A stretch of 64,000 bases of DNA from a virus (IMGVR_UViG_3300025280_000001:4524-68523); one strand, 5' to 3'; counted from the stretch's first letter, positions 1 through 57,433 are shown. Numbers and translations: made by a program. The notes: generated by a model from the sequence alone, not told the origin.

Positions 1-284
1 ATTCATTGGATGCAGCTCATATGTTTTTGACAATTTTTGCTTTAATAGCACTTAATTTTAGAGATTTCTCTATGATACATGATTCTTATGGGTGTCACGC
101 ACCCTTGGTTAGTGTAATGAGAGACGCAATACGAAAGGAGTTTTATGAAATGCATAAACCACAACTGTTAGAAAAATTTCGGGAAGAAACCCAAGAACTT
201 ATTGGGAAAGTGTTACCTAAGTCACCTATTACTGGAGACTTGGATATTAATTTAGTGTTAAAATCAGATTACTTCTTCTCATGA
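1..284 (+). CDS. T7-like single-subunit RNA polymerase, C-terminal fragment (5' truncated by window)
   Basis: SLDAAHM (cf. T7 HSQDGSHL), motif C IHDSYG and the family-typical C-terminus SDYFFS. Confidence 0.93.
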   Translation, partial: SLDAAHMFLTIFALIALNFRDFSMIHDSYGCHAPLVSVMRDAIRKEFYEMHKPQLLEKFREETQELIGKVLPKSPITGDLDINLVLKSDYFFS

Positions 285-508
285 CTCATTTCTTTATAGA
301 CAGTGAGCATGATATGGAGGTGAACATAACATATTTAACCGAGCTTGCAAAATCAAAAGATTATTCTAAGATAGACATAACATTCCCTTCTAAGTTTATG
401 ATGATGACTTTTATGGATAATCTTTTAAATAATTTTGCCGATGAACACGTACCAGAACATACTAATATGGACATTAGTATCTTTGTACCAGGAGGAGATA
501 ATGAATAA
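281..508 (+). CDS. hypothetical protein
   Basis: 75-aa ORF with ATGA overlap on the RNAP stop. Confidence 0.6.
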   Translation: MTHFFIDSEHDMEVNITYLTELAKSKDYSKIDITFPSKFMMMTFMDNLLNNFADEHVPEHTNMDISIFVPGGDNE

Positions 509-758
509 GAATGATGTTGTTTGGAATGGTATTAAATATAATTCCAAGAAGGATCCTAACCTTAACGAACTTCAGGAGATGCATATGAATGAAGAGATAA
601 ATTTATATGAACCTATTGAAGCTTACTATGTTAAGTGGGATCATGATATAGATGGTGATAATCATAATCCTATTGAAGAGACAAAGGTAAGGAAAGATCT
701 TCCTTGCATTTCTCAGCAATGGAAAGAGGATTATAATAGGAGATTAAAGAATGGCTAG
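501..758 (+). CDS. hypothetical protein
   Basis: GGAGGAG RBS before ATG at 501; overlaps neighbours. Confidence 0.6.
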   Translation: MNKNDVVWNGIKYNSKKDPNLNELQEMHMNEEINLYEPIEAYYVKWDHDIDGDNHNPIEETKVRKDLPCISQQWKEDYNRRLKNG

Positions 759-1404
759 AGTATTATGTATTGGAGACTTACATTTACCTGCTATCCACCC
801 TGACTACCTACAATTTGTAAAGGATTTGAAACGAAAGTATAAAACAAATACTACTGTATTTATAGGTGATGTGTTAGATCATCACTCGATATCGTTTCAC
901 CAAAAGAATCCTGAATTGCCATCTGCAATTGATGAGCATGAGCAAGCTATTAAAGGTATGAAGGCGTGGAAGAAGGCGTTCCCTGAAGCTATGGTATGCA
1001 TTGGTAACCATGATGAACGAGTACATCGTTTGTCAGCTACTGCGGGGATTCCTTCTATGTATCTGGTAGATTACGTAGAGTTATATGATACACCTAATTG
1101 GGAATGGGACTACTCATTTCTAATTGATGATGTTATGTATACTCATGGCACAGGAGCAGGCGGTCAACGACCAGCCTATTCTGCTGCTATAAAGTTAGGA
1201 CATAGTGTGGTGATGGGTCATGTACATAGTAATGCTATGCTACAGATTTTACAATCACCAACTCAAAGGATCTTTGGTTTAAATGTAGGGTGTGGTGTTA
1301 ATACACATCACCGTGCTATGAATTATGCTAAGAATCATTTGAGTAAGCCAGTACTAGGTGCTGGTGTTATTATTGATGGAAAGCCATCATTAAAGTTAAT
1401 GTAA
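751..1404 (+). CDS. calcineurin-like metallophosphoesterase
   Basis: GDLH, GDVLD, GNHD, HG and GHVH motifs. Confidence 0.9.
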   Translation: MARVLCIGDLHLPAIHPDYLQFVKDLKRKYKTNTTVFIGDVLDHHSISFHQKNPELPSAIDEHEQAIKGMKAWKKAFPEAMVCIGNHDERVHRLSATAGIPSMYLVDYVELYDTPNWEWDYSFLIDDVMYTHGTGAGGQRPAYSAAIKLGHSVVMGHVHSNAMLQILQSPTQRIFGLNVGCGVNTHHRAMNYAKNHLSKPVLGAGVIIDGKPSLKLM

Positions 1405-1450
1405 TTTGAAAAATTTTGCTGAAAATTTTTAGAAAGTCAGCATTATTTAC

Positions 1451-1478
1451 TTGACAAATTACAAATGTATGGTATAAT
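1451..1478 (+). promoter_or_regulatory. host sigma70-type promoter
   Basis: TTGACA-16 nt-TATAAT with extended -10 TG, in the intergenic gap before the SSB gene. Confidence 0.85.
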
Positions 1479-1519
1479 ATCCATATAAGATTTTCAAACA
1501 GTCAGATAAAGGAGACAAA

Positions 1520-2050
1520 ATGACAATGACAGCGAAAATGAAACAGTTTGTAACAGAAACTTTAGAGGTAGTATACGGACATCTTCATCGTCCAGATGAT
1601 AAGTTCGGAGCTGATTCTGCTAATCACAATATAACTGTGATCGTAGATAAAGACTTTCAAGTTGTACTTGATAACCTAGAAAAAGAATCTGGAGCAACAA
1701 AGATTAATGGTATGCGTGTTGATGATGATGGTCGTACTTTACTAAAGGTCAAATCAAAGATCTTTGTTAAGAAGGGCGATCAAACATTCCCATGTCGTGA
1801 TGCCAATTCAATTAAGACTGAGGCTACACCCTTTGGTGGAGACAAGGTTAGACTACGATTGAATCCTACAATTCTAGAGAGAGACAACAGTATGAGTATC
1901 TATCTTAATGGATGTCAAATTGTTGAGAAGAATGCTTTAGATACTGGTGGATTTGATACAGTAGAAGATGGTTTCGATGGCAGTACTTGGACAGCACCCG
2001 CTGCTACACAAGAATTACCTGCTGAAACCGAAGACCCCCTACCATTCTAA
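1520..2050 (+). CDS. single-stranded DNA-binding protein (T7 gp2.5-like)
   Basis: HLHRPDDKFG, SIYLNGCQIV, acidic tail ending LPF; position in the replication module. Confidence 0.8.
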   Translation: MTMTAKMKQFVTETLEVVYGHLHRPDDKFGADSANHNITVIVDKDFQVVLDNLEKESGATKINGMRVDDDGRTLLKVKSKIFVKKGDQTFPCRDANSIKTEATPFGGDKVRLRLNPTILERDNSMSIYLNGCQIVEKNALDTGGFDTVEDGFDGSTWTAPAATQELPAETEDPLPF

Positions 2051-2463: not shown

Positions 2464-2564
2464 AGAAGATGATGAAGGCTGTGTAATTATTGACGATGGG
2501 GAAGGAGAATAAATGGTTGTAGTTTATTGTATATTTTTTGGTATTTATTTATGGGGGATAATTA

Positions 2565-2960: not shown

Positions 2961-3072
2961 TACAGTGGTTGGAACACTATGTTATACGGCGGTAGTCTTT
3001 ATAGCAGGTGCTCTTATTGGTAAACCAATGTGGGAATGGATGCGTAAAAGTATGCCTTGGTCGGGGAAATAA
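2944..3072 (+). CDS. small single-TM protein (42 aa, not in ORF track)
   Basis: AAGGAG RBS; MVEIFDTVVGTLCYTAVVFIAGALIGKPMWEWMRKSMPWSGK; stop abuts the primase ATG. Confidence 0.7.
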   Translation: MVEIFDTVVGTLCYTAVVFIAGALIGKPMWEWMRKSMPWSGK

Positions 3073-31544: not shown

Positions 31545-32104
31545 GAAATATAGACCAGAGACGAGAAGATTCTAATAGACCTATAGATATACCTGATATA
31601 AATCAGAAGGTAGGTATAGAGAATGTAACATTTTCTAGTGCAGACGCACGGTTTCTAGACTCAAATAGAAATAGATATGTCTCTACTATGCCAATGCAGA
31701 TGAAGGGGTTGGAAAATTCTGAAGCCCGTTTAATGTATGATATGTATAAAACTATGAGGGGTACCCTTTTGGAGGGTGGCAAAGCTTGGATGCAATCTGT
31801 GGCAGCAAAGCAAGCCATGGATGACCCAGCGTTGACTGCGAGGTATGAGATGGAGGCTCGACGAGACGCTACCATGAAAGAGTTTTCTGAGATAGATCAA
31901 GCTGAAGTAGAGCCTAGATGGAGGTCATATAATCGTGATACTGCTAGGGGAACAAGATTTGAGAAAGATAAACGAATAATAGCACAAACAAAACTAAAGA
32001 ATAAAACCATTGAAATTGAAGAGAATGAGACCTTATCTGCGGCTGCAAAGACTGCGGCAAAATTGAAACTACATAAGGAGTTTTTAGATGAAGCAGGATA
32101 TTAA
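31541..32104 (+). CDS. hypothetical, probable internal virion protein
   Basis: coupled ORF in the ejection-protein block. Confidence 0.5.
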   Translation: MRNIDQRREDSNRPIDIPDINQKVGIENVTFSSADARFLDSNRNRYVSTMPMQMKGLENSEARLMYDMYKTMRGTLLEGGKAWMQSVAAKQAMDDPALTARYEMEARRDATMKEFSEIDQAEVEPRWRSYNRDTARGTRFEKDKRIIAQTKLKNKTIEIEENETLSAAAKTAAKLKLHKEFLDEAGY

Positions 32105-47100: not shown

Positions 47101-50100
47101 CATGCTTTGAATACTTTGGGTAACTTCCATGCTATAGAGATGATGGAGTATACACTAAGAACGGGTATGAGATTAAATGTACGAGAAAAGGTACAACCTG
47201 ATGGTACTGTTGTGCTTACACCTAGAGAAGCTTTATCAGATCGTATGAGACAGGATATGGGTTTTAGTTTTAGACAAGACAGAAAAAATGAACAGCTTTT
47301 ATATGAAGCCTTTAGATTAATGTTGGGTGAAGATACTCATATGGATTTAGTAGAAGAAACAAGAGAGATAGATGGCAGTAAAACTAAATTCATAAATGCT
47401 CGTACATATATAAATCATAATATAGATATCAAGTTCCATAAAGATGGACCGTCATTCTCTACTAGTGTTCATCGTGCTGCTCTTATATCTCCCTTACAGA
47501 GAGTTATGCAGAGGCTAAACTACTTTGGATCTAATAAATTAAATGGTGACTTAGATGCATTTGTTGAAGCTCGTGAAGAAGATCTACTAATGGTTATAGG
47601 TACAATGATTCGTAAGCCTGAGATTACAGCAGAAGAGATGTCAATAATTCTACCATTTATTATGGAAGAAAAGGTAATAAAGAAAGATGGAGAGTCTACT
47701 CCTGTTCTCGAACACATAAGAGATTTGCAAAGTAGAGCTGAATACTTCCTACAAGAAATTTTAAATGAGCTACGATGGAGAGAACTTTCTAGTACTGTTA
47801 AACACCTACATGAAATCAATACCCCAAAGATTGTTGATAAGCGTACTGGTAGGATTATGAATTCATGGCAATCAAAAACAATACCATTTGATTGGATTGC
47901 TAGATCTTTCTGGGAAAATGTTAGTGAAGAATCATTTAAGGTAGATTTAAATGAAACAGAATTTTATGAACAAGTATATAAACCACATGCAGAAAAGATA
48001 TGGGATAGTGTTAAAGCAACATACTCCAAGACTCATCATAAAGATATATTAGATTTTCTTGAGCGACATAAAGAAGAGCTTATGGAATTAAGTTATAAAA
48101 ATGCTTTAGAAACAATGTTTAATGAAAACCTAGAGGAAGAACCACGAGCAGAATCTGTCTTACTAAAAGAAGATATGGATGCTAGGTGGAGAAAAATACA
48201 AGAGATAGATCCTCAGAAAATTAAACAGCTTAGAACGAAAGCGGCATTACTCAAGAGATGGGAAGGTAGTACCACTATTTATCCACACCTTGTACATGTA
48301 TTAAGTAGTATTGATACGCTTGTTAAAGATAAAGTAATAACCGAACAGGTTGCAGATGCTACCCGCTCAATGTTGGCATGGATGGCTGAAAAAAATCCCC
48401 AGATATTTGTTAACATGAAATTTGAATCAAAAGAAAATATCCCAGGAATATATGTAGCGTTTGCTCAAAAGGTAAATCAAGCTGAATCTGGAGTTACCTT
48501 CGATGGTATATATAGAAACGATCCTGAAGCTGGGGTAAGATATGAACCAGATGAGGACATGAGAACAACAAAGAATTTGTTGTATCTAACTGGACTATCG
48601 AATGAACAAATAGATGCAATGCCTGAATTCCAAGAAGGATGGTTAGATGGTGTGGATGCTATGTCCTATGTTGTAGGATTTGATATGGAAACAACTATTG
48701 CTGCTACTCCAGAGGGTAGAGATATTCTTATGGCATCTATAAAATCTCGTACAGATGGAGATGCAAAAGGTACCTATGAAAAGAATCTATGGACAGCTCA
48801 ACCTATACCAGGATATGCTAATATCCGAAACGAAATAGAAACTATTAAATCAAACCATACACGAATAACTCTGTCTGAAGATGGTACACATTATCACGCT
48901 GTTGGTAACCCTGATAAAAAATATGCCCGTGTTACACAGGCTATTAGGGGAGATGTCGATCCTAAAGAAATGAACCAGAAAGCTATGGATATCGGTACTA
49001 ATATAGATGTAATAGTAAGAGACTTCTTTGCTGGAGAGCTAAAGGGGTATCTGAATTATCATACTGATGGTAACCCACATATAAAAACCGAAGAAATATT
49101 TGATAGTTTTATCGAACAACTAGAAGAACTGAAGCAAAAATTTGACCGTAATGGTGATGAAGTTATAGCTAATAACATAGTATTATATAGTGATGAACTT
49201 GAAATTGCTGGTACTGTCGATCTGTTAGTATACAATGAAGATAAACAAACTATTAGTATCTATGATATGAAAACTAAACGAAGAGGTGCAAAGGCAGGAG
49301 CTGGGCGTAGTGGTTTGTTATATAATGTAGATACAAAATATGAAGCTGGAAGTTATAGAGATAAGTGGACGAATCAATTAAATCTTTATTCCATATTATT
49401 AAACCACACCCACAATATAGATACAGAGACTCTTGGTATTATACCAATAGCTGTTGCTTATGATGGAAGAGTGAAGGCAAGAACTACAGATGAACTTACT
49501 CTATATGAAACAGAGTCTATCAAAGAACTTCCAGAAGTTACATTACTAGCTAGAGATGAAGGTGCTTCAAGAAATACACTAGCACAAGATGGTGGTAGAA
49601 TAACTCAAGAGCAAGCTCAAGATATGTTGAACACTCTTGAGATGCATCAGAATCGTGGCGGTAAGGTAGTTACTCATAACGGTAATGAGTTTGACTTATT
49701 AACACTTGGGCATATAGCAGATAATCCTAGACAAGCCGCTAGGATTGCATTAAGAGGTTATGATATAATGCAAATACTTATGTATGCTGAACCAGAACCT
49801 GGCAGATCACTAGATTGGTTTGGATTAAATGATGCTGGGCTAAATACAATAGGTAGAGGTAAGATAGACGAATCCGGATTAGCTCCACTATATTCACAGC
49901 AAATGCTAGGGCAAGAATTAGAAGACCTTACTGGAGAGGTATCATCTGAAGCAATAGCTAAAATCAAAGAGATGGACCCAGCAATGGCTGGAGATAAATT
50001 ACGCATTTATGTAGAAGACGATGCAAACTTAACCGCAGATCTTCTTGTTGGACTATGGGAAAAGAGTCAATCAGATAATAAAGCTCTTGATATTACTAAC

Positions 50101-53100
50101 GCTAAGGGAGCAACTAGGGTTACTATGCATAATGCACACCCATCTTGGAAGACAGCTTCTGAGATAGACTCTGTTCCAGGATCTGTAAGAAAGTTTAACA
50201 ACAACGGTTTGATTACACCACGCTCTACACATATACCTGGAGATCCTTCACTAGATCCTGCATATCTTATTGGGTTGGATGCTGCAAAGCTTTCAACAAT
50301 GGATACAGCTTCTGCTGTTGAGATTATTTTCCATGAGGTTATGGAGGTTGCTATCTTAAAGTATATGAGAGAAGATACCGCAGCGTTTGATAATCTCGTA
50401 GAAATGTTAGAACGTAAAGAAAATATAAAACTATTGGAGAGAATGATATTAGCTCAATCTGGTGGTAAGAGCGGACCCTCAATTAAAGCAAGAATGGAAT
50501 ACTTTACAAGTTCGCCAACTGAACTTATTGCCGCCTTTGCTTCATACTATGTAGCCGCTAAAGTATTGGGAGATCCAGAAGGAGTTGTAGCTCCAATTAT
50601 AAATGATCTTCATAAGTCTTCAGCTTGGAGTAAGCTAAAGGAATTTATGAACAAAACATTTAGATGGGTTGGAGATATCTATAGAGATATGTCACATGTA
50701 TTTGTTTCATTCATAGATGAGCCAGGTGGTCAGCGTGAGTTTGATGATCTTATGACCCTATTAAATACAGTGTTCGGTCTAGATCAAGAAGGTAATATGC
50801 TATTAGATGCTAATAATGATTTATCTAAACCACGTTATTCAAAAGACTGGAGATATGATACGCCTTATCAACTAGCCGAAGAACCAGCAGAAATATTAGA
50901 GGGTGGGGATAAAGAGTATCTAAAGAAATATAATAAGATACAAACACTCTCGGATGAGTTAGATGTACTGATGGCAAACGGAAAGGGTAGTTCTAAAGAA
51001 TATCGAAACAAGAGTCTATTATCCCGTAAGCTTCATGGAGAAATGGTTCAGTATGGATATGTTAATAATAATCCAAAAACCATGATAGGTACTGAAGGTG
51101 GTGAAGGTGGTCGTCATGTTCAAGGTCTTACTAGAGGAGAACAACTATCGTGGGAACAAATTATACGTAGAGATTGGTGGCTTGGTAGTGGTCCCGATGG
51201 ATTAGCTATTCTGAATTCAGGAAACATATATCTCAAGGCAGCCTTTGCGCATATGACAAGTCAAAAAATGTCGGACTATTTAGGAGGGCACCTATCACAG
51301 GGAGTGGGTGGAACCGCTAGATGGTTTGCTGATTTCTTTGATAGGAGTGGGGTTTCTAAATATGTTATGGATAATGCAAAGAAATTTATTCTTGCATCTT
51401 CTGGTGCAAATGTTACATACAATAGTCCATTTGTAATATCAGTTATACTAGCAAATATGATGGTTGATGGGGCGACTATTACTAGGAGTTCAGTATTACC
51501 ACACTCAAAGGGTATTGTTTCTGTTCAGGCAGCACATAGAAAAGCAACAGGATTTGAAAAGGCTGTTGGTGATACATTCTCACGAGATGTAATTAAACTA
51601 TTTGAAAAAAGCCCATACTATAAGAATGCACTTGAGAGTGGAGAAACTAAGGGAGATCTAGTACAGAATCTTCAAACTGAAATTATTAAGATTCTAGTAG
51701 ATCAAAAAGATAAAAGAGATTATAGCGGTATTGAAAAGTATGATGATGGTATTCAAAAAGGTATAAAGAATCTAGATGCTACATTTAGAAGTTTTGTTAA
51801 TCAGATATTTGGAATGTCCAAAGAGCAGGGTAGAGCTTATATGGAAAAAGATACTGAAATGGTTCCTTGGTTAGTTAAATCTACAAACACTGGAGAAACA
51901 TTACATGCTGCTACCCAAAGAACTAGACCTGCACTTAAGAAATTATTTACGGATAAAATATCTTCAGCAAGTAAGGAATATATTCATCCTGTGTTAGCGT
52001 ATACGGCTGGATTATTACCTAAACCATCAAGATTAAATAAATCATTAGAGATGATGCAAATTATTCATCCCGCATGGTATAGGTTTATTGCAACGAAAGC
52101 TCTGTTAAATTATAGAGCTATGGCTAATGATCCTACAATTAGTTTAAATGCTTTCGTAGCTTTAACAATGAATGCTACTGTTAGAAGTGCATGGAATAAA
52201 GTTACATCTGATGCTATGTCTGCTAAGGGTGATAGACATCTGATGTGGAATGATCTCGATGGTTTTGCTGTTAAGGATCCTAAAGGAAAACCTTATGATA
52301 TGAATGAGGTTAAAGCTAAGATACGAGAGAGATATGATATGTTACTTGATGGTGAAGCTCTTGGTGATGATTTTGGTTTAAACAATGTTATCGACGAATT
52401 GTTTGATCTCAATAATCATCTAGATCCCCATGATAAAGTTAGATCATTTTATGTTGCTTCTAAGACTAGAAGAAATAAAGACTTCTCTAGTGTAATGGAT
52501 TTTATTCTTAATACATTCCTAGAGCGAATACACCACCAAGCTTACTTTGTTTATGATAGTATATTTACTCCTAAAGTATCTGAAGCACTAGCTATACCTG
52601 AAATTAGAAGTTATTTAGAAACTAACCCCGCTATACTAGCTAGAGCTGTATCTCGTTCACAGGGTCATAGAGCTCATGAGATAGATATGTTTAAGGAGAT
52701 TACTAACACAAATCTAGATTTCAGTGAACTACTAAGTCTATTTGGGGAGGTTGCTAGTACTAAAGGTAGTGTCTTTAGGATGACAGATGGTAAAGGTAAA
52801 GACCTTACCGAAAAAGAACAGGCACAATTATCTCATGCTTTAAATGTAACCTTTAAACGTAAGTATGAAGTACTCAGAGGCGTTGCTGCTAGATATGATA
52901 CAAGCGAAGATACCTTCGCAAACAGCTTAGGAGAGGGTTCTAACTGGATTGTTAAGTCTGTATACGGTACTAACCTAGCTATGGCTACTTCTGTAGTGGA
53001 AGGAAGCATGGCTGGCTTATTAAGTACTATAGGATATAACGATGTAAAGGGGCTTATATTCCCGTTTTTAGCCTATTTAAAGCCCCTTATGAGGCAGGAT

Positions 53101-54855
53101 AATGAGGTTGCTAGGGGTATGATATACGGTCTTAGGCTTCTAAAGGGCGATACAACACCAGGCTTGGTTGATCTAGATACTAGTATACACCCCGCTGATA
53201 CCGATCTTTACTTCGCCAAACAGCGTAAGAATTGGTGGGCAAGACGACCCGAAGCAATTACACACCACGCTTCACGAGTTAATGAACAACTTAAGTCAAT
53301 GATTGATTTGCAAATGAGAAAGTTCATGTATGATAAACTTAATAAGGGGCAGTGGAGAGATTTAATTAATCTTATTGCCTCTGGATCTAGAGATGCTAAG
53401 ACAGGTAAGCTACTAGAACACCTTGAGTTTGAAAAAGATCCCGTTGCTTGGAGAAAACGAGAGGAAGCAAGGGTAATGGCAGCTAATAGGAAGCTTCCTG
53501 CCGACCAACAACAGGCAGCAAGAGAAAAACCAGGCTATGACCTAGAAGCATTGCTAGATGATAGCAAAGCTAGCTGGAGGTTATGGAAAAAGCTGGCAAC
53601 GGAGAGTGGATGGGGAGCCAAACAGTGGAGATCGGCTATGATTGCCGCAAAACACGGTCTTATGACCCACGAAGCTCTAGATAATTTTATTATTATGGAA
53701 TCTGAAGCCCGTACTATAGCAAAAGCCGAAGGTTACGGGAAGGAGGGGTTCTTTCACCTCTATAAAATGAGACAGTGGACAGAAATGTTTGCTAAAGAAG
53801 AAGATGCAGCTGGTATGCTGGATGTATATGGTAATACACGTAATGCTTTACAAGAATTTATAGAAATAGTTATGGTAGCCCCTAATATTCTAGACTTGAA
53901 TGTAGTCCCAAGTGCTTTGTGGGCTATACTTCACCAATATAGAACATATCCAATCCTATTTACTGCCCAAAGAATTGTTAGAGACTCATCTAACTATGAT
54001 CCCTTTACCTGGTCTTTAAGAGTTGTATCTAATTTGCTCCTAGATATGCTATATACTCTATTAACAATGGTAGCTGGTGGTTATAGAATACAAGATATGC
54101 AAGATGACTGGGAAAAAGAACCTGCGTCAATGATAGCATTATTAGCAACACGGCTACCCATGTTTGGTTTCTATGGTTCAGCTGCATTTGAGCTAATGAA
54201 TCTTGTTGCATCAGGTAGAAAGGGTGCTGTAATGGCTCCTGTATCCCTTGCAGGGCTTGCAGGATTCCTTGGAAACTTAGTTAATGTTGGTAAATCAGGC
54301 ATAGAAGCAGCTATTCCAGGTGGAAAATTATGGGATACCGATGGTGATACACAAGACCTTATTAACTTATTAAGAGTCATTCCTTATTTAGGTGAGTCTG
54401 TAGTTAGGATGGGACTACATCAAGCACTTCGTAGTAAACAATCCAGAGGTGCTATCACAAAATATGGACAGAATAGAGAGTTTTTCAACTTTGGTCTGAC
54501 ACGAAAGCAAATGATGGATCAACCTAAGTATTACTTAGCAGAGCTTATAGGTGAATTAGCTCCACACCTTATCCCCGAAGATATACAAGACTTGGATGTA
54601 GAAGATTGGGTAGCCATTAAATCAGGAGTAGAGTCCCTGCCCCTTCAGCAGCCCGAAGAAGCAACTGGTGTTGATACTCCAGTCGGAACGACTCCAGATC
54701 CTGACCCCTTCACAGCGGCAACAGAACGCTCTCTACGGGCTCCGAGTACCCTCGGACTGGGCAAGCTAGACAAATTCATCAAAGCTCCTATGCCGACTCC
54801 TAAGGGGATTACGGGAGGAAAGCGAACTTGGGACATACAAGATAAAATCGACTAG
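38158..54855 (+). CDS. giant polyvalent virion protein: gp16-like ejection protein with N4-vRNAP-like RNA polymerase, DEDDy exonuclease and PD-(D/E)XK nuclease domains
   Basis: 5565 aa; DQSWQG, RDALFKPGPLMTLYGGG, VYDAM; FDMET/HNGNEFD/YVEDD; AGTVDLL..IYDMKT..QLNLY; Gly/Ala hydrophobic segment near the N-terminus. Confidence 0.75.
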   Translation: MVRPRQSPADYLPPLPGPSPDDMFHMGSLDRELDAGYYSKIPEAPLEAWGEDTLYSSKTIHESQKPYQVESINLATGDYQIGPLSLLESNRLGMALVHTGGMWGSNAQNTNLVASMMFAGRRELAGTFMALDEDMEKNLKNFISPLAYSNWLKGVNVHLPELDKPSTYIPVRTQHFEPMFIGEAWEQFNPNDLFLEEPHPDYTPDKAWALMWEKNPGFMNRISKLGANEEYFADAKNEHEWMHNANMLIELNYITKSKMWSDDTSWWGKNVSGQLYTFVVSGILNEPDMVGEMLVGLLLTAATAGIGGVALTAKIATYMRKGVKIMDELAELRTFVSKVLRMSRVTNFLPSAIPHTFMTRGGKVALKSRWFNPFANKGRNIFMANAAEGALTGTLAEIGNQRRKINWELQDEYDWEMVAWQGGLESIITPFINPAFVLGMKGLQRGSMRTMQFSSQLMTELTGTDIDLGAKLPDVVKNIVKVWGQPESATDRITLDILGNMAWKNLENMLGSLDADGRKVTGQRLGQILAMLLEDGKLDSLQGLETTLELMIKEATVRKDDGTTYIDHKKMDLPMAVAKLAAIAAKKRGLTADEIGTHEATAFFFIHGERIASERNKKNIKRKDGSEPVGDNKWTAPDIITEALGGTEIDIAVFFDEAMRAEVDEELTLGGLDPKFASKSQVAAAWEKAMVKRGATFAKRASAIIDEQEKLIKEVSELIEAARQALDIREGDASYYMNELVASDPELKRRLVELENFTNDLQALFNQISEIRALRESDLHVKDQTQANSMLDIALTSDRVGGMMARLKLIAKALNIDVKGISKISDMVAILKQRVSQDERFDLEAFKPLAEHLSLELSENLAVITEEQSNLEKVLIDNLFRTIANYHNVYKNSSPHVIDQTIDGVKIDRQFQAIVNSIMRVNDSNYEVLNIDNMTNTGEWNVTESGTKTDTTEPIFLTDKILLKDKKSGDVLSKGEGTIHHVEAHLLDKADPRHKEYVPPPPPPTTGGHPSTPPSKINELREKAGFEPVEVELSGDPESNSFVPLDFAESVTVYQTLQELIAKAEEAGDTKLAKELKRTLSALRFFAENHLDTLPITEAIVDIQTKTLAITKRMNEIDEEFMNNEKFKANYQIEADAQVVAVLSTRIKNSADRGKIKENDVVLDTESQEALSSLEDSYKIKPKKGVSHWKRLAKIRTMLEKKSANFGAKYLKAKEKHNKEITTHSDEIMRLKEKQRSEIHKINMRVIEAHLGEHTGLTLATGREIAEQVATHQLKLARKEADWKFFWEEQSTMTLNDFIFQYLNNNQYVRTRILKKHGTKEEGYTKKQLQEYWDQAIKKEKELIDRLHVGRMMATQRVINNLATEILEEKGVTIDNWNPEHRFTLDTLPDQRLAALAAGDGVTSHIETKLEAVTLLSQFARRIIYMLNTPRWSDETTLKWDKVKKALPPGIKNLRIEIVFAHALTPDSKNKANTEMLEVLELEFDVELLKGALADLITLLDPAIKEQYKYTARMIREAQKDPTDTHSEYSWYAAQRIVTMLWDAMLPAYRDEFLANEIHPDHIGRGYKLVHSKGVTTKWGTESDYIIAVGEEAKNMLLILPEGIRKLALERLGIKETAIIADIDPNTLLTAMASFMHKKTAADLAKYGNGTEDYNSAFTTGRGIIEIVLDRSPGTMRRVVDKSDPEGVVDNFTELNETSKESAKRFKKPEKEKSKVLLPPHTGDINMFGPLEEWGLIRTLEDEVFRNRIKFSAHVEITDSIRNQWADPNRVSNVKEDDMFNVGRRLPFRLTPYINNRLYKGTTLDRQELLEALFTVQLDMPAVVQSFIYDAVIGHRQFYASEAKTTSEIITTGWDTVMPSTNLAWVNILQQLNPELLQAENVDSPLVQLVLEEALRWENQTDPDTGKTRPFNEIINQYNYGDQSWQGAHLFWFLNRKGDEFIAELQRIHDEGEMGWNEDLEDRYITTAVKWIHELLSTDKDSRMDIFRDLFKKVGITEDTDYDTIRTMQEEDGNRVKILRDALFKPGPLMTLYGGGKEAQMVYYKGDGRVDLVRLNEELDVAITLKDIENLQDFMFGGFMWEGTTILHDAMDYSVELKRAVFKLLAVEGTGGARSQAAIESARAGLQKISDDDGGDYGRMLMRASDALVLLRARIADISEFTEIPVKIIEERYATRLRWVRGYLKKKAKANELVDEYDMARLNEFLLGDRLGWRDVENLRAQNLQNSVAHYMNLDHMRIQARMEGYNFDQDDTMGLEELALYFTQMRSHDSKRWYHTVYDAMNVQPVNVSASKIATVYEGIMNTDRFAARVEELANDPDDPKSTSPEFNGMSQAEVFALSEMLQEEGGAPFGMWDIKVNNYHAAKERFGALDERGQFIKDADRKKWKVWAEREIEDALLRDEMLYEASYGPLALTEYEQGGVVTTKGGREFDIFSEMDPERMYGTIAQRWHTADKAAEVEHRQIVNLINKYEAFRSMGTETEAAGRQILTRVSQWSGIPIDLLPTIKELGIRIGTNRYPVESPYTRTVKPLGDETHDVDDFIGIQTAHPGGYAAMRPAIKKVAWDQVGSLALRKFYYDRKINDLETRINPYLDPAIDPSIRPVESLENILPEHNRTDFPILSDKQNILYPESLRGFEAENLLSGRAATVQSIRFKLEEKIDIWARNQGWDIQFLKEHKELYLSLYYMMKLDDMFGYVDSGYRPPEYAEAWNIMRQLETVGRATRANKPGEMFKAKYDIIEKIRKIYRISHGMLTRTRSMIDLHDKGAVLGTVYVPGKGKMTYEEALVSGILGPNALTPALELGLQAADLMVLDADNNLGEYIATTETKEGTQVIQGIDSNMLVTKLPEQFGLDTILIKMLEDTGRLTKEQIAGYEAGSYKSIIDPTGKNGITSYELLGFVQEVFRRNREDRLSNYDLVIFEVREESEGRFTPLNIQVASRRDHTGVQAIVKRDPLNTGITLTPRSYIGPTKRFAMTPESIFHALNTLGNFHAIEMMEYTLRTGMRLNVREKVQPDGTVVLTPREALSDRMRQDMGFSFRQDRKNEQLLYEAFRLMLGEDTHMDLVEETREIDGSKTKFINARTYINHNIDIKFHKDGPSFSTSVHRAALISPLQRVMQRLNYFGSNKLNGDLDAFVEAREEDLLMVIGTMIRKPEITAEEMSIILPFIMEEKVIKKDGESTPVLEHIRDLQSRAEYFLQEILNELRWRELSSTVKHLHEINTPKIVDKRTGRIMNSWQSKTIPFDWIARSFWENVSEESFKVDLNETEFYEQVYKPHAEKIWDSVKATYSKTHHKDILDFLERHKEELMELSYKNALETMFNENLEEEPRAESVLLKEDMDARWRKIQEIDPQKIKQLRTKAALLKRWEGSTTIYPHLVHVLSSIDTLVKDKVITEQVADATRSMLAWMAEKNPQIFVNMKFESKENIPGIYVAFAQKVNQAESGVTFDGIYRNDPEAGVRYEPDEDMRTTKNLLYLTGLSNEQIDAMPEFQEGWLDGVDAMSYVVGFDMETTIAATPEGRDILMASIKSRTDGDAKGTYEKNLWTAQPIPGYANIRNEIETIKSNHTRITLSEDGTHYHAVGNPDKKYARVTQAIRGDVDPKEMNQKAMDIGTNIDVIVRDFFAGELKGYLNYHTDGNPHIKTEEIFDSFIEQLEELKQKFDRNGDEVIANNIVLYSDELEIAGTVDLLVYNEDKQTISIYDMKTKRRGAKAGAGRSGLLYNVDTKYEAGSYRDKWTNQLNLYSILLNHTHNIDTETLGIIPIAVAYDGRVKARTTDELTLYETESIKELPEVTLLARDEGASRNTLAQDGGRITQEQAQDMLNTLEMHQNRGGKVVTHNGNEFDLLTLGHIADNPRQAARIALRGYDIMQILMYAEPEPGRSLDWFGLNDAGLNTIGRGKIDESGLAPLYSQQMLGQELEDLTGEVSSEAIAKIKEMDPAMAGDKLRIYVEDDANLTADLLVGLWEKSQSDNKALDITNAKGATRVTMHNAHPSWKTASEIDSVPGSVRKFNNNGLITPRSTHIPGDPSLDPAYLIGLDAAKLSTMDTASAVEIIFHEVMEVAILKYMREDTAAFDNLVEMLERKENIKLLERMILAQSGGKSGPSIKARMEYFTSSPTELIAAFASYYVAAKVLGDPEGVVAPIINDLHKSSAWSKLKEFMNKTFRWVGDIYRDMSHVFVSFIDEPGGQREFDDLMTLLNTVFGLDQEGNMLLDANNDLSKPRYSKDWRYDTPYQLAEEPAEILEGGDKEYLKKYNKIQTLSDELDVLMANGKGSSKEYRNKSLLSRKLHGEMVQYGYVNNNPKTMIGTEGGEGGRHVQGLTRGEQLSWEQIIRRDWWLGSGPDGLAILNSGNIYLKAAFAHMTSQKMSDYLGGHLSQGVGGTARWFADFFDRSGVSKYVMDNAKKFILASSGANVTYNSPFVISVILANMMVDGATITRSSVLPHSKGIVSVQAAHRKATGFEKAVGDTFSRDVIKLFEKSPYYKNALESGETKGDLVQNLQTEIIKILVDQKDKRDYSGIEKYDDGIQKGIKNLDATFRSFVNQIFGMSKEQGRAYMEKDTEMVPWLVKSTNTGETLHAATQRTRPALKKLFTDKISSASKEYIHPVLAYTAGLLPKPSRLNKSLEMMQIIHPAWYRFIATKALLNYRAMANDPTISLNAFVALTMNATVRSAWNKVTSDAMSAKGDRHLMWNDLDGFAVKDPKGKPYDMNEVKAKIRERYDMLLDGEALGDDFGLNNVIDELFDLNNHLDPHDKVRSFYVASKTRRNKDFSSVMDFILNTFLERIHHQAYFVYDSIFTPKVSEALAIPEIRSYLETNPAILARAVSRSQGHRAHEIDMFKEITNTNLDFSELLSLFGEVASTKGSVFRMTDGKGKDLTEKEQAQLSHALNVTFKRKYEVLRGVAARYDTSEDTFANSLGEGSNWIVKSVYGTNLAMATSVVEGSMAGLLSTIGYNDVKGLIFPFLAYLKPLMRQDNEVARGMIYGLRLLKGDTTPGLVDLDTSIHPADTDLYFAKQRKNWWARRPEAITHHASRVNEQLKSMIDLQMRKFMYDKLNKGQWRDLINLIASGSRDAKTGKLLEHLEFEKDPVAWRKREEARVMAANRKLPADQQQAAREKPGYDLEALLDDSKASWRLWKKLATESGWGAKQWRSAMIAAKHGLMTHEALDNFIIMESEARTIAKAEGYGKEGFFHLYKMRQWTEMFAKEEDAAGMLDVYGNTRNALQEFIEIVMVAPNILDLNVVPSALWAILHQYRTYPILFTAQRIVRDSSNYDPFTWSLRVVSNLLLDMLYTLLTMVAGGYRIQDMQDDWEKEPASMIALLATRLPMFGFYGSAAFELMNLVASGRKGAVMAPVSLAGLAGFLGNLVNVGKSGIEAAIPGGKLWDTDGDTQDLINLLRVIPYLGESVVRMGLHQALRSKQSRGAITKYGQNREFFNFGLTRKQMMDQPKYYLAELIGELAPHLIPEDIQDLDVEDWVAIKSGVESLPLQQPEEATGVDTPVGTTPDPDPFTAATERSLRAPSTLGLGKLDKFIKAPMPTPKGITGGKRTWDIQDKID

Positions 54856-54923
54856 GGGGTCGAGAATTTACGTGACCCCTTAATAGGGTTTGGACTGGGG
54901 CTGACCCCCCCGTACCCCCTATT
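54855..54923. other. inverted repeats at probable genome end/start junction
   Basis: GGGGTC..GACCCC (54856-54879), AATAGGG..CCCTATT (54882-54923), C/G runs; late-to-early gene switch and composition shift. Confidence 0.45.
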
Positions 54924-54962
54924 GGAACATTCCACTTGGCGCTTGCGCCGGAAAGGAGTCTT

Positions 54963-55199
54963 ATGATTAATTTCATTTTGGCTTTCCTACTAGTGTGTGT
55001 TACTACTCTTGTAGTAGTTTCCTTATGTCGTCGACGTGCGCGTCGTCGTGCTACTGATCGATCTTTGCAAAGACTGCTTCACGAGATAGGTTGGGCAGTA
55101 TCGAACGATGAACGTCGTGCTGACAAGTCTGTAGACCCTGTGGTTAAACACAAGGATACAGAGACATCGCCATCTGATGATTCAGAAATATGGTGGTGA
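54963..55199 (+). CDS. small membrane-anchored protein
   Basis: AAGGAG RBS before ATG 54963; N-terminal TM helix followed by RRRARRR. Confidence 0.65.
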   Translation: MINFILAFLLVCVTTLVVVSLCRRRARRRATDRSLQRLLHEIGWAVSNDERRADKSVDPVVKHKDTETSPSDDSEIWW

Positions 55200-55445
55200 T
55201 CAACTCCGGTGCCCTCCCGCAAGGGAGGGATGCCGAGCCCTTTCGGTGGTAGAGCTGCCATGACGAGCAGCTGAAGAGAAAGCAACCACTGCGCCATGGA
55301 TGGTGGGTCGTGGTTGGTGGGCTACGGTTTGAGAAGCCACTAACATTGCGGGGGATGCCGACGTTTGTGCGGCATTCAAGTAGTGGCTTAGGCTAGTAGT
55401 CGAGCTCGTAACTGACCTGGTGAGCACTAGCCAAGACGATAAGGA
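55200..55445 (+). promoter_or_regulatory. structured leader or ncRNA upstream of the divergent RNAP
   Basis: CCCTCCC-GCAA-GGGAGGG; AAGCCACTA/TAGTGGCTT; GGCTAGT/ACTAGCC; AGCTGC/GCAGCT. Confidence 0.55.
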
Positions 55446-55468
55446 CACATCTCAAAGGAGACTCTACT

Positions 55469-57433
55469 ATGAAAAGTCCTTCTTCCCCCGCAAGTGGAGA
55501 CCCCACTTGCAGCCTACTTCTTCCCGAAGTAGCAAGTATTTTAGATACTTACGGCAGCGATAAGTTACTCGCTGCCGCAAAATTGCTGCGAAAGGGCGGT
55601 ATGGGTAATCACGATGTGGTTAACCAGCTCGTCAATGATGTAGCCATTCATGCTGGTCTGACTGGTGAGAGTGGTGGTACAGCCGCAGCAGTTGCAGTAT
55701 TTACCTACTGCAAGGTCATGGCTCGTAAGCATGGTGTTCGTCGCATGACGGACAAAGCACCATTGTTTGAATCTGAAGTGCCAGGTACACGCCGTTTCGT
55801 TGGCTCACGCCGACCTGACTGGTCGCTGGACTCAGCATCTGAAGGTTACGTAGGCGAGAAAGTAGCTGCTGTTCTGAAATGGATATCAGCTAAGGGTTTC
55901 AAGGTTCATCAAGCTTTTGCTGCTGAACTTCGACTACTCCCCCGTGGAGTTCTTTGTACAAAGCCTAACAAAGACTACCGTGACTTAGATACAGGCGAAC
56001 CTCTAAGCCAAGCACAGTCAATAGTGACAGCACTAGATTATGCTGCAGAAGCAGGAGATCGTCTCGTATATTGGATCGTCTTTATGGATTTGGATGGACG
56101 TATTTATTATGTCGCTCCAATTTCACTGCAAGCTGCAGACGGTGTAAAAGGATTAGTATGCCTACCAGAAGCGAAAGCTCTAACCGACCAAGGTTGGGCT
56201 GATCTGTGGTGGAACCACTCAAAGGAGTGGGGAATCCGTGACATGCAAGACTGTCGAGAAATCGTCAGCTCTGGTATCGTTGCGTACCACGCAACTGGTG
56301 GCAAGCTAGACGCATACGCCCATGCGATGCACACTGTACAAGCAGACGATACCAATATGTACCAACTACCAGTTGGTCTCGATGAGAACTTCTCATCTGC
56401 GCTGATAAATGCGGGACTTTCTGGTTGTGAAACCTCAGCTCAGAACTCTGGTCTCTTAAGGTTACCTGACGGTAGCTATACAGAAGGTTGGAGTAGTACG
56501 AGTAAGGAAATGAGTACTGTGGAACTTGTTGATGAGATTCCTGTCGATAAGCGTAAGCCATTCATTAAACCGGGTGGCACCACACTATCTTATAACTCTG
56601 GTACAGAAACCGCAGCTCTAGCTTTCATGTTTGGTAAAAAATGTGAATATGCTTTCAAGGATACCTTGCATATGAAATGGCAGGTCTTTAGGAAAGCAGC
56701 TAAAAGTAAGCCGCTACGTCTCGTAAAAGCCTTGCTCAACAAGAAGAATACGGATGTTAACGCTCACAACTGCATGATGGTAGCCTTAGAATTCTCAGGT
56801 GCCATAGAAGAAGCATTAGATAAAGCTTTGCCAGCAACGCTAGGTAATGCCTCGTTCTTGAATGATGTGTCAGCATCGTGCCAAGAGCAAGGACTGCCGC
56901 GTGAATGGACAACTCCAATGGACTTGACTATTAAGGTCCTTCCCTATCGCCCAACTAAAGAGACCATATCTGAGGGTAAGCGAAAAGGTAAATTGGTTAC
57001 GGTAAGGCTCGCCGCTGGTATTAATTGGACAGAAACCCGTGGTGGTCGCACAAGGTCGACCATGTTACACGTAGCATTTATATTAAACGATGGCGACTTG
57101 TCACTAATGCCTCAATTGATTCAGAGTATTGAAGCTGCTATACTTCAAAAAGCCATGTATGATTTGATTCAGATGGCTATAGATATATGGCTGTCTTCTG
57201 CCCATGACTGTATGTATGCTCATCCAAATGACATTCGTGTTATAGACCGTGTGTTGAGTAAAGCATTTATGTGGGTTATCAAGCGATTCAACTTGGAAAA
57301 AGTCTTCGCCCATGTTGGCGTTGGCGCTGTCTATCCTGATGGCACTCCTGTCGTTAGGTCTAATCGTGATGCTATACTTAATCGAATCTCTAGTGAAATG
57401 AATTTGTGTGGTCTCCCCGCACCAATTAAGTAA
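55469..57433 (+). CDS. divergent, N-terminally short T7-superfamily RNA polymerase
   Basis: DLDGRIYY, PVGLDENFSS, RKPFIKPGGTTLSYNSG, PQLIQSIEAAIL, AHDCMYAHP in canonical order. Confidence 0.85.
   Translation: MKSPSSPASGDPTCSLLLPEVASILDTYGSDKLLAAAKLLRKGGMGNHDVVNQLVNDVAIHAGLTGESGGTAAAVAVFTYCKVMARKHGVRRMTDKAPLFESEVPGTRRFVGSRRPDWSLDSASEGYVGEKVAAVLKWISAKGFKVHQAFAAELRLLPRGVLCTKPNKDYRDLDTGEPLSQAQSIVTALDYAAEAGDRLVYWIVFMDLDGRIYYVAPISLQAADGVKGLVCLPEAKALTDQGWADLWWNHSKEWGIRDMQDCREIVSSGIVAYHATGGKLDAYAHAMHTVQADDTNMYQLPVGLDENFSSALINAGLSGCETSAQNSGLLRLPDGSYTEGWSSTSKEMSTVELVDEIPVDKRKPFIKPGGTTLSYNSGTETAALAFMFGKKCEYAFKDTLHMKWQVFRKAAKSKPLRLVKALLNKKNTDVNAHNCMMVALEFSGAIEEALDKALPATLGNASFLNDVSASCQEQGLPREWTTPMDLTIKVLPYRPTKETISEGKRKGKLVTVRLAAGINWTETRGGRTRSTMLHVAFILNDGDLSLMPQLIQSIEAAILQKAMYDLIQMAIDIWLSSAHDCMYAHPNDIRVIDRVLSKAFMWVIKRFNLEKVFAHVGVGAVYPDGTPVVRSNRDAILNRISSEMNLCGLPAPIK

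What the first reader, a model, noticed from the sequence alone, without database searches (positions are those of the whole stretch)
1..57433. Three distinct single-subunit RNA polymerases in one T7-like phage
Seen: T7-superfamily RNAP motifs at three loci: 1-284 (canonical IHDSYG...SDYFFS), about 43900-45000 inside the giant protein, and 55469-57433. A consensus sigma70 promoter at 1451 adds host RNAP as a fourth. Known: Autographiviridae normally encode one RNAP, while N4-like phages use a virion RNAP plus a split two-subunit RNAPII on a different virion chassis. Inference: a transcription cascade (injected vRNAP, then short early RNAP, then canonical RNAP) on a T7-type head/tail module, which I do not recognise as described.
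Basis: partly seen in the sequence, partly recalled or inferred. Interest (0 to 1): 0.92.

Follow-up and report, generated by a model that had tools for sequence, protein, structure and literature searches.

The report
Marine T7-like phage, two RNA polymerases
This is the almost complete genome of a large marine T7-like phage that carries the usual phage RNA polymerase plus a second, shortened and very diverged one, next to a 5565-residue protein in which a third polymerase could not be shown; this gene layout was already described in a 2025 survey.

Summary
The window is 64 kb of a 68.5-kb phage record with terminal repeats. Two of the three claimed polymerases are real.

- **Window 3-284:** this is the C-terminus of an 815-aa T7-type RNAP (PF00940, 9.5e-78).
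- **Window 55469-57433 (654 aa):** a diverged T7-family RNAP without the N-terminal domain. Against nine T7-like RNAPs it scores hhalign Prob 98.1, E 7e-14. DxxGR, the motif A Asp, motif B K/R-x3-K-x7-Y and the motif C His-Asp are all aligned.
- **Assembly:** the short RNAP sits directly after the giant gene in two other lineages. Independent metagenome contigs bridge the GC-rich island, so this is not a misassembly.
- **Giant protein (third claim):** not supported. Pfam, PHROGs, PDB, the ESM Atlas and hhalign (Prob below 1) give nothing, while an N4 vRNAP versus T7 control gives Prob 96. Only a conserved R-x3-K-x7-Y-G-G stretch resembles motif B.
- **Sigma-70 site at 1451:** a perfect 12/12 match.

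The layout (large genome, large protein of 3274-5566 aa, extra RNAP of about 650 aa downstream of it) is published for marine Autographiviridae group AG-10.1 (PMC12361551, sections 17-18). Both AlphaFold models failed, so the fold test remains open.

The parts
3..284 (+). Last 93 codons of the canonical 815-aa T7-type RNA polymerase. The gene starts 2164 bases before the window, at genome 2360.
   Evidence: PF00940 1.5e-19 and phrog_414 2.6e-26. Whole protein PF00940 9.5e-78. Best tblastn identity among the 30 listed rows of 2735 matching phage records is 31% over a short stretch (16% of the query) and 28% full-length (LUZ100); all 2735 matches are below 60%.
55469..57433 (+). Second, short (654 aa) and highly diverged T7-family single-subunit RNAP. 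No counterpart of the T7 N-terminal domain was detected. Motifs: DLDGR at 207-211, D305 (motif A), K363/K367/Y375 (motif B), H579-D580 (motif C).
   Evidence: hhalign Prob 98.1, E 7.1e-14; P0001 118-620 aligned to T7 303-853 (residue mapping). phrog_414 9e-12. ESM Atlas 0.95 to PF00940 clusters. BLASTP to the phage's own canonical RNAP E 0.017 over motif C.
38158..54855 (+). Giant ORF of 5565 aa, last gene of the block after the terminase. N-terminal, middle and C-terminal modules are conserved in the giants of related phages.
   Evidence: Homologs P0012, P0013, P0014. C-terminal module found in 9 of 12 related records, in open frames of 2906-5694 aa. Colinear BLASTP to 8 further giants.
42955..45597 (+). 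Function unknown; not shown to be a polymerase.
   Evidence: Present in 12 of 12 giants (hmmsearch, 5.3e-32 or better for the 8 distant giants). hhalign Prob 0.6 to T7-like, 0.8 to N4-like vRNAPs, 0.1 to the short RNAP family. No PDB match with a 10-lineage profile. AF2 pLDDT 43.
44215..44262 (+). Motif-B-like stretch LRDALFKPGPLMTLYGGG (R2020, K2025, Y2033, G2035). It reads R-x3-K-x7-Y-G-G in 9 of the 12 giant lineages.
   Evidence: Identical in at least 11 of 12 lineages. It is the top, but non-significant, local hhalign match to N4 motif B (query 425-471 to N4 660-709, E 0.066).
48961..49443 (+). Nuclease-like insert in the giant (aa 3602-3762).
   Evidence: phrog_298 'exonuclease' 4.7e-10. 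Missing at this position in the L022 lineage and placed elsewhere in L026 and L105.
54700..59500 (.). G+C-rich island (45-52% against about 38%) that holds the short RNAP gene, strong terminators and structured RNA.
   Evidence: The same G+C rise lies after the giant gene in L023 and L024. Bridged by contigs of runs not marked as the source.
54856..54925 (.). Unique non-coding element directly after the giant's stop codon, conserved in two lineages whose giants are only about 35-40% identical.
   Evidence: Alignment A5. One copy only in the window.
59012..59206 (+). manA RNA motif (RF01745).
   Evidence: 78.6 bits against a gathering score of 55.2, E 4e-19, full model length.
1451..1478 (+). 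Exact sigma-70 consensus (TTGACA, 16 nt, TG, TATAAT), 42 nt before the gp2.5-like SSB gene.
   Evidence: 12 of 12 matches.
63913..63940 (+). Second strong sigma-70-like site (TTGACA, 16 nt, TG, TACAAT), inside the terminal repeat of the record.
   Evidence: 11 of 12 matches. The repeat is shown.
57831..57860 (+). Strong intrinsic-terminator-like hairpin (13 pairs followed by a T run), about 400 nt after the short RNAP gene.

Best explanation
The window is most of the 68.5-kb genome of a marine T7-like podophage of the kind published as Autographiviridae group AG-10.1. It encodes two single-subunit RNA polymerases, not a demonstrable three.

1. A canonical 815-aa T7-type enzyme lies upstream of the DNA-metabolism genes.
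2. A 654-aa, very diverged T7-family enzyme has no detected counterpart of the T7 N-terminal (promoter-opening) domain. It keeps DxxGR, the two catalytic Asp, and the motif B Lys and Tyr, so it is most likely an active polymerase. It resembles N4 RNAPII in size and in lacking the N-terminal domain, but it is one polypeptide.

The short RNAP gene sits in a G+C-rich, RNA-structure-rich island immediately after the giant gene. It stands at the head of the long run of small ORFs that leads to the canonical RNAP.

Inferred mechanism (not shown): host RNAP starts at strong sigma-70 promoters, and the two phage polymerases then read different gene classes from different promoters.

The 5565-aa protein is a mosaic carrier protein with conserved N-terminal, middle and C-terminal modules and movable nuclease inserts. 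It is probably packaged and ejected like T7 and N4 internal virion proteins; this is inferred from its position after the terminase, beside a LysM protein and a 1325-aa protein. Its middle module is of unknown function and is not shown to be a polymerase.
For: Genome and modules.

Canonical RNAP.

Short RNAP:
- hhalign Prob 95.9 (3 sequences), 97.4 (5) and 98.1 (6 sequences, E 7.1e-14) against nine T7-like RNAPs.
- Aligned residues: D305 to T7 D537, K367 to K631, Y375 to Y639, H579-D580 to H811-D812, and DLDGR to DWRGR.
- The motifs are kept in a 701-aa homolog that is 21% identical.
- phrog_414 9e-12 and ESM Atlas PF00940 neighbours.

Synteny and assembly:
- Homologs of the short RNAP start 235-285 nt after the giant gene in L023 and L024 (hhalign Prob 93.5).
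- Contigs from runs not marked as the source bridge 54671-55249, 55233-58754, 58934-59825 and 59398-60093 without differences.

Negative results for the giant, with a working positive control: N4-like vRNAPs against T7-like RNAPs give Prob 96.1 at the same alignment depth, while the giant gives below 1.

Published description of the same layout: PMC12361551, sections 17 and 18.
Against: - The short RNAP does not reach the Pfam gathering score (12.8 bits against 22).
- Its motif B Arg is Lys in its own lineage.
- Its AlphaFold model failed (pLDDT 38) and Foldseek on that model found nothing (0 matches at E <= 0.001). The fold is therefore not shown.
- No phage promoter families could be found, so the division of labour between the polymerases is pure inference.
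- In 7 of 7 near-complete related records the short-RNAP profile found nothing. The gene is not universal in the clade, or it is too diverged to see.
- For the giant, absence of detection is not absence. R-x3-K-x7-Y-G-G and an upstream Asp are invariant in 12 lineages. The paper reports PF00940 in four other AG-10.1 large proteins.
- Virion location of the giant is not shown by any search.
Confidence: 0.75

Rival explanations
1. One reading: the giant protein's middle module (aa about 1600-2480) is an extremely diverged, virion-delivered RNAP of the N4 vRNAP kind, so the phage has three single-subunit RNAPs and an N4-like cascade on a T7 chassis.
For: - R-x3-K-x7-Y-G-G is conserved in at least 11 of 12 giant lineages, with the exact spacing of T7 and N4 motif B in 9 of 12.
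- An invariant Asp (D1830) lies about 190 aa upstream.
- The best local hhalign match of the module to the N4-like vRNAP profile is motif B onto motif B (E 0.066).
- In the window's own subfamily, VYDAMNV resembles N4 IFDGMNI.
- N4 vRNAP is itself embedded in an internal-virion-protein homolog (PMC4819975, abstract and IVP-D passages).
- PF00940 is reported in four AG-10.1 large proteins (PMC12361551, section 18).
Against: - hhalign Prob is 0.1-0.8 to T7-like, N4-like and short-RNAP profiles with a 12-lineage alignment, where the vRNAP against T7 control gives 96.1.
- No Pfam, PHROG or PDB sequence hit was found for the window's giant or for three homologs.
- The proposed motif C Asp (D2280) is replaced by Gly-rich, Asp-free sequence in 8 of 12 lineages, and no invariant Asp follows motif B.
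- The 'NVGRR' stretch lies only 45 aa before D1830, against 112-135 aa in T7 and N4, and it is not conserved.
- None of the 12 related records has a PF00940 match inside a giant ORF at E <= 0.1.
Confidence: 0.12
2. The 654-aa protein is a polymerase-derived protein that no longer transcribes gene classes. It could be a replication-priming or origin-activating enzyme, or an inactive regulator.
For: - There is extreme divergence from all RNAPs (BLASTP E 0.017 to the phage's own RNAP).
- No N-terminal domain was detected.
- Motif B Arg is replaced by Lys in its lineage.
- The gene is absent or undetectable in 7 of 7 near-complete relatives, so it is dispensable for the clade.
Against: All catalytic residues are kept across homologs that are only 21% identical, which argues for selection on catalysis. 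N4 RNAPII also lacks the N-terminal domain and is a true transcriptase (recalled knowledge, not from a call).
Confidence: 0.08
3. The G+C-rich 54.7-59.5 kb segment, with the short RNAP, is a chimeric misassembly from another genome.
For: - There is a G+C jump from about 38% to 45-52%.
- Loose ends and depth spikes occur at about 55.2 kb and 59.0 kb in metagenome contigs.
Against: - The same order (giant gene, conserved element, G+C-rich leader, short RNAP) is seen in L023 and L024.
- The 80%-identical short RNAP and the 88%-identical giant are both recorded with a longest contig of 67118 bases.
- Contigs of runs not marked as the source bridge both borders without a difference.
- The spikes coincide with conserved RNA elements such as manA.
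Confidence: 0.02

Closest known systems
Marine Autographiviridae group AG-10.1 (uncultured viral genomes; Commun Biol 2025, PMC12361551)
   Same: A large genome, a large protein in the published range of 3274-5566 aa (5565 aa here) upstream of the typical RNAP, and an additional RNAP of about 650 aa (654 aa here) downstream of the large gene among small unknown ORFs. The marine origin also matches.
   Different: The paper states that AG-10.1 lacks an SSB gene, but here a gp2.5-like SSB match exists (phrog_112, 8.2e-10). The paper says most large proteins share little or no homology, but here N-terminal, middle and C-terminal modules are shared by 12 giants. Membership by their core-gene tree was not tested, and their supplementary lists could not be opened.
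Phage T7 RNA polymerase (PF00940 family)
   Same: The canonical enzyme is a full-length member. The short enzyme aligns to T7 residues 303-853 with DxxGR and motifs A, B and C in order.
   Different: The short enzyme has no detected equivalent of T7 residues 1-300 and is below the Pfam cut-off. Its motif B Arg is Lys in this lineage.
Coliphage N4 RNAPII (gp15 + gp16, 269 + 404 aa)
   Same: A second, small T7-family polymerase of about 650-670 aa in total that lacks the T7 N-terminal domain (sizes; properties recalled).
   Different: N4 RNAPII is split into two polypeptides and this one is single. Sequence likeness is limited to motif A (hhalign E 0.027). The chassis is T7-like, not N4-like.
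Coliphage N4 virion RNA polymerase gp50 (3500 aa)
   Same: A giant protein encoded with the ejection proteins, and a motif-B-like R-x3-K-x7-Y-G stretch.
   Different: No profile similarity (Prob below 1), no conserved motif C Asp, and no fold evidence.

Membership tests
T7-like single-subunit RNAP (PF00940): canonical 815-aa protein | Pfam RNA_pol above the gathering score | tested here: met
   262.4 bits against a cut-off of 22, E 9.5e-78; 257.6 bits in the six-frame search.
T7-like single-subunit RNAP: 654-aa protein | Pfam RNA_pol above the gathering score | tested here: not met
   12.8 bits against 22; 12.5 bits.
T7-like single-subunit RNAP: 654-aa protein | Profile-profile homology over palm and fingers | tested here: met
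   hhalign Prob 98.1, E 7.1e-14, 452 columns, residues 118-620 to T7 303-853.
T7-like single-subunit RNAP: 654-aa protein | T/DxxGR, motif A Asp, motif B R-x3-K-x7-YG, motif C (H)D, in this order | tested here: met
   DLDGR, D305, K363-x3-K367-x7-Y375 (Arg in the G013 homolog) and H579-D580 are aligned to T7 D421-R425, D537, R627/K631/Y639 and H811/D812.
T7-like single-subunit RNAP: 654-aa protein | N-terminal domain (T7 residues 1-300) | tested here: not met
   Only 117 residues precede the aligned core, and no match to that part was found.
T7-like single-subunit RNAP: 654-aa protein | Right-hand fold with two Asp in the palm | tested here: inconclusive
   AF2 pLDDT 38, pTM 0.24. Foldseek gave 0 matches at E <= 0.001.
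N4-like virion RNAP: giant protein, aa 1600-2480 | Sequence or profile homology to mini-vRNAP or T7 RNAP | tested here: not met
   hhalign Prob 0.1-0.8. No Pfam, PHROG or PDB hit. The control (vRNAP against T7) gave Prob 96.1.
N4-like virion RNAP: giant protein, aa 1600-2480 | Motif B R-x3-K-x7-YG | tested here: met
   R2020, K2025, Y2033 and G2035 are identical in at least 11 of 12 lineages. The spacing is exact in 9 of 12 and one residue longer in the window's subfamily.
N4-like virion RNAP: giant protein, aa 1600-2480 | Second catalytic Asp (motif C) after motif B, conserved | tested here: not met
   D2280 is kept only in the 4 close lineages. The 8 distant lineages have no Asp there, and no invariant Asp follows motif B.
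N4-like virion RNAP: giant protein, aa 1600-2480 | Polymerase fold | tested here: inconclusive
   AF2 with 9 rows gave pLDDT 43.4, pTM 0.26. It was not sent to Foldseek because the model of the verified RNAP already gave only noise.
N4-like virion RNAP: giant protein | Presence in the virion and ejection into the cell | not testable with these tools
   Only gene position is available: after the terminase, beside a LysM protein and a 1325-aa protein.
N4 RNAPII | Heterodimer of two polypeptides | tested here: not met
   A single 654-aa ORF here and single 655-712-aa frames in homologs, against N4 with 269 + 404 aa.
Autographiviridae group AG-10.1 (PMC12361551) | Large genome, large protein of 3274-5566 aa upstream of the RNAP, extra RNAP of about 650 aa downstream of it | tested here: met
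   68.5 kb, 5565 aa and 654 aa, in this order, compared with sections 17 and 18.
Autographiviridae group AG-10.1 (PMC12361551) | Placement in their core-gene phylogeny; absence of SSB | tested here: inconclusive
   The phylogeny was not run. An SSB-like match is present (phrog_112, 8.2e-10), contrary to their description.

The most novel reading that the evidence does not exclude
The middle module shared by all giants of this clade, with invariant R-x3-K-x7-Y-G-G and invariant Asp 1830, 1922 and 1962, is a polymerase so diverged that profile methods fail. It would be delivered with the DNA like N4 vRNAP. That would give a T7-type virion three single-subunit polymerases and a host-independent start of transcription.
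Probability: 0.12. Interest if true: 0.85.

Novelty: already known. Interest (0 to 1): 0.35.

Why it matters
T7-like phages are the textbook case of one phage, one RNA polymerase. A clade that keeps a second, N-terminally shortened polymerase next to a protein of about 5000 residues asks two questions: how two related enzymes divide a genome, and what a podovirus does with such a protein. That the clade exists is in print.

- The short enzyme has a complete catalytic set and is held in synteny with the giant gene across lineages that are only 21% identical.
- The giants share three conserved modules.
- The specific claim of a third polymerase in this genome fails every test that could be run.
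- One conserved motif-B-like stretch remains worth a structural look.

Tried and rejected
- **AlphaFold2:** the giant module (9 rows, pLDDT 43.4) and the short RNAP (3 rows, pLDDT 38) were both too poor to use. Foldseek against PDB with the short-RNAP model gave 0 matches at E <= 0.001 of 191 at E <= 10. The giant model was therefore not sent.
- **ESM Atlas:** no usable hit for giant aa 1701-2400.
- **Searches in the phage collection:** megablast of window 1-25000 and tblastn of the short RNAP both found no match.
- **The search for related loci in viral contigs:** nothing with the short RNAP or its alignment, nothing with a single giant segment, and one locus each with A3 and A6.
- **Homolog searches for the short RNAP:** only 2 relatives besides itself.
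- **The giant module in the 1.84-billion representative library:** 7 proteins at E <= 0.001, mostly fragments.
- **hmmsearch of the A2 profile against PDB:** 0 matches. phmmer of giant aa 3451-4050 against PDB: 0 matches.
- **Two-barrel (crAss or P23-45 type) RNAP:** the giant has only two DxDxD strings, and neither has all three Asp conserved across the lineages aligned there. This idea was rejected.
- **Phage promoter families:** direct repeats and a 14-mer search over 25 intergenic regions gave only ribosome-binding-like and A+T-rich words.
- **tRNA scan:** 0 genes.
- **Expression:** no RNA holder was listed among the 24 runs, so nothing can be said on expression.
- **Records not held:** L023-L026 are not held for the genome search. 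The full gene after the L024 giant could therefore not be read.

Full report
**What the window is.** The window is bases 4524-68523 of a 68,523-base virus record. The first 100 bases or more of the record recur at its end. IMG/VR classes the ends as direct terminal repeats, and CheckV rates the record as complete. All long ORFs lie on the + strand. PHROG and Pfam scans give a T7-like order:
- RNAP, a metallophosphoesterase, gp2.5-like SSB, RusA, primase-helicase, family A DNA polymerase, dNMP kinase, exonuclease and ribonucleotide reductase;
- then the T7-type portal, scaffold, major capsid protein, tail tube A and B, a 1444-aa protein, and the small and large terminase;
- then a block of 213, 325, 187, 689 (LysM), 1325 and 5565 aa.

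After the giant gene comes a G+C-rich island at 54.7-59.5 kb (45-52% against about 38%). A run of small ORFs then leads round the record's end to the RNAP gene. The canonical RNAP is at most 31% identical (28% full-length, LUZ100) among the 30 listed rows of the 2735 matching phage records, and all 2735 are below 60%. Neither the DNA nor the short RNAP finds anything in the phage collection. Marine metagenome runs hold the sequence: 14 of 24 listed runs hold half or more of the sampled words.

**Locus 1.** Window 3-284 encodes the last 93 residues of an 815-aa protein (genome 2360-4807). The fragment matches PF00940 at 1.5e-19 and the whole protein at 9.5e-78; phrog_414 is matched to its end. 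This is an ordinary, if distant, T7-type RNAP.

**Locus 3, the 654-aa protein.** Single-sequence methods barely see it.
- Pfam gives 12.8 bits, below the cut-off of 22.
- phrog_414 matches at 9e-12 for residues 180-262 only.
- Nothing is found in PDB.
- BLASTP to the phage's own RNAP gives E 0.017 over the motif C region.

The database holds only two relatives, at 80% and 55% identity.

I built a profile of nine T7-like RNAPs: T7, LUZ100, Anchaing, a MedDCM phage, f30-Xaj, a pelagiphage, Fri1, KF1 and the window's own enzyme. hhalign of the short-RNAP family against it gave Prob 95.9 (3 sequences), 97.4 (5) and 98.1 (6 sequences; E 7.1e-14, 452 columns, residues 118-620 against T7 303-853). 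The alignment puts these residues together:
- DLDGR on T7 DWRGR;
- D305 on D537;
- K363, K367 and Y375 on R627, K631 and Y639;
- H579-D580 on H811-D812.

A homolog only 21% identical, found in a related record, reads MDGTGR, VDMNLS, R-x3-K-x7-YG and VHDA at the same places. The ESM Atlas places the protein among viral PF00940 clusters (score 0.95). The AlphaFold model was useless (pLDDT 38) and Foldseek on it returned noise. The fold is therefore inferred from sequence, not shown. The protein has only 117 residues before the aligned core, so it lacks a detectable counterpart of the T7 N-terminal domain. In size and in this respect it recalls N4 RNAPII (269 + 404 aa), but it is unsplit, and its likeness to N4 RNAPII is limited to motif A (E 0.027).

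**Is the island a misassembly?** No.
- In two other lineages of the giant gene (L023 and L024; giants 34-37% identical over the long central and C-terminal stretches, 28-30% at the N-terminus), the stop codon is followed by the same conserved non-coding element. A G+C rise follows, and after 235-285 nt an ORF homologous to the short RNAP (hhalign Prob 93.5, with DxxGR and motif A aligned).
- The 80% homolog of the short RNAP and the 88% homolog of the giant are both recorded with a longest contig of 67,118 bases.
- Contigs from runs not marked as a possible source cover 54671-55249, 55233-58754, 58934-59825 and 59398-60093 without a difference.

**Locus 2, the giant protein.** Every test I could run for polymerase homology failed.
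- No Pfam, PHROG or PDB sequence match was found for the giant or for three homologs.
- The ESM Atlas gave no hit.
- hhalign Prob was below 1 against T7-like RNAPs, against nine N4-like vRNAP polymerase domains and against the short RNAP family. This held for the region alone, for whole giants, and finally for a 12-lineage alignment of the region.
- The control at the same depth, N4-like vRNAPs against T7-like RNAPs, gave Prob 96.1.
The same scan did find motifs A and B of the short RNAP.
- A 10-lineage profile found nothing in PDB (best E 0.41, a malate dehydrogenase).

**The giant family.** A portal search gave 53 related IMG/VR loci. Results in 12 of the larger records:

| Query | Records with a match | Near-complete records (of 7) | Notes |
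|---|---|---|---|
| Giant C-terminal module (A6) | 9 of 12 | 7 of 7 | open frames of 2906-5694 aa |
| PF00940 | 11 of 12 | 7 of 7 | canonical RNAP only; nothing inside a giant ORF; one extra 19-bit hit in a truncated 385-aa frame at the start of G006 |
| Short-RNAP profile (A4) | 1 of 12 | 0 of 7 | the match is in G013 |

Eight more giants were fetched. All 12 giants carry the middle module (hmmsearch, 5.3e-32 or better for the 8 distant giants). In the 12-lineage alignment the residues identical in at least 11 lineages include D1830, D1922, D1962, R2020, K2025, Y2033, G2035 and R2273. The motif-B-like stretch reads R-x3-K-x7-Y-G-G in nine lineages, which is the spacing of T7 and N4 motif B. 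It is also the top local hhalign match to N4 motif B, though not a significant one (E 0.066).

I put the chance that this module is a polymerase at about 0.12.

**What the giant is otherwise.** It has conserved N-terminal (about aa 70-480), middle and C-terminal modules. It also has a nuclease-like insert (phrog_298, 4.7e-10, aa 3602-3762) that is missing or sits elsewhere in relatives. By eye, DEDD-like strings flank this insert; that reading of the strings is recalled, not tested. Hardies et al. [quoted passage not shown] The position of this gene fits such a carrier, but no call shows that it is in the virion.

**Promoters.** The sigma-70 site at 1451-1478 is exact. Another site, with 11 of 12 matches, lies in the terminal repeat. 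Promoter-like sites as a class are not enriched in either scan (58 found against 62.3 expected; 25 against 21.5). No repeated phage-promoter motif was found. Any cascade is therefore inference.

**Comparison with print.** A search for two-RNAP T7-like phages led to PMC12361551 (Commun Biol 2025); I read passages and sections 17 and 18. It describes the following among 1253 complete marine Autographiviridae genomes:
- Group AG-10.1 has large genomes.
- It has a large protein of 3274-5566 aa upstream of the RNAP. Eight of these carry PF13482, seven PF02463 and four PF00940.
- Twenty-three members carry an additional RNAP of about 650 aa, downstream of the large gene among small unknown ORFs.

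The window fits this description in every respect that I could check. The exception is a gp2.5-like SSB match here, where the paper reports none. The finding is therefore known at the level of gene content. The paper does not analyse catalytic motifs, synteny of the island or modules of the large proteins, and it does not claim a virion RNAP. Its supplements, which I could not open, may show whether this very record is among its genomes.

**Verdict.** Two single-subunit RNAPs are confirmed and a third is not shown. The arrangement is already described. One conserved motif in the giant deserves a structure.

Noticed in passing
window 59012-59206 (+): A full-length manA RNA motif (RF01745, 78.6 bits against a gathering score of 55.2) lies in the G+C-rich island. 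Metagenome contig depth spikes there (62 in X15), and several contigs branch off at its edges, as expected for an element shared with other genomes.
   Followed up: partly
window 54856-54925; L023 21266-21340; L024 21110-21180: A unique non-coding element directly after the giant's stop codon is conserved across lineages whose giants are only about 35-40% identical. It has the form GGGGTC..AATTTAC.TG....TTAAT.GG...CTGACCCCCC.TACCCC and occurs once in the window. It could be a promoter, a packaging or end signal, or an RNA element.
   Followed up: partly
window 55200-55468: There is a 269-nt G+C-rich leader before the short RNAP gene. At about 55203-55250 many metagenome contigs end or branch and depth rises (34 in X15), which suggests a second widely shared structured element. 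Rfam gave only a chance-level match here.
   Followed up: no
window 48961-49443 (giant aa 3602-3762): A nuclease-like insert (phrog_298, 4.7e-10) is absent at this place in the L022 lineage. It sits near the N-terminal third in L026 and L105, so there is domain shuffling within the giants. PF13482 (RNase H-like) scores 0.053 in homolog P0013.
   Followed up: partly
window 1520-2050 (+): A gp2.5-like SSB and annealing protein match (phrog_112, 8.2e-10) lies 42 nt behind the perfect sigma-70 site. PMC12361551 states that AG-10.1 members lack an SSB gene.
   Followed up: no
window 63913-63940 (+), same as genome 40-67: A strong sigma-70-like promoter (TTGACA, 16 nt, TG, TACAAT) lies inside the terminal repeat of the record.
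   Followed up: no
L093 (G006:C1:2-1156): A 385-aa frame, cut by the contig start, lies downstream of that record's giant gene by circular order. It has a weak PF00940 match (19 bits) and a local T7-profile match (E 2.8e-7). It is probably a third, still more diverged lineage of the additional RNAP that the short-RNAP profile missed.
   Followed up: partly
window 32088-34157 and 34170-38147 (+): The 689-aa protein has a LysM domain (1.5e-5). The 1325-aa protein has an internal 80-nt repeat 204 nt apart (35157 and 35361). Both lie between the terminase and the giant gene and are candidates for ejection or tail proteins.
   Followed up: no
window 57831-57860 and 58227-58250 (+): Two strong terminator-like hairpins (13 and 10 pairs, followed by T runs) stand behind the short RNAP gene. 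Terminator-like sites are enriched in 54-64 kb (13 against 6.1 expected) and in 1-20 kb (29 against 10.2 expected).
   Followed up: no
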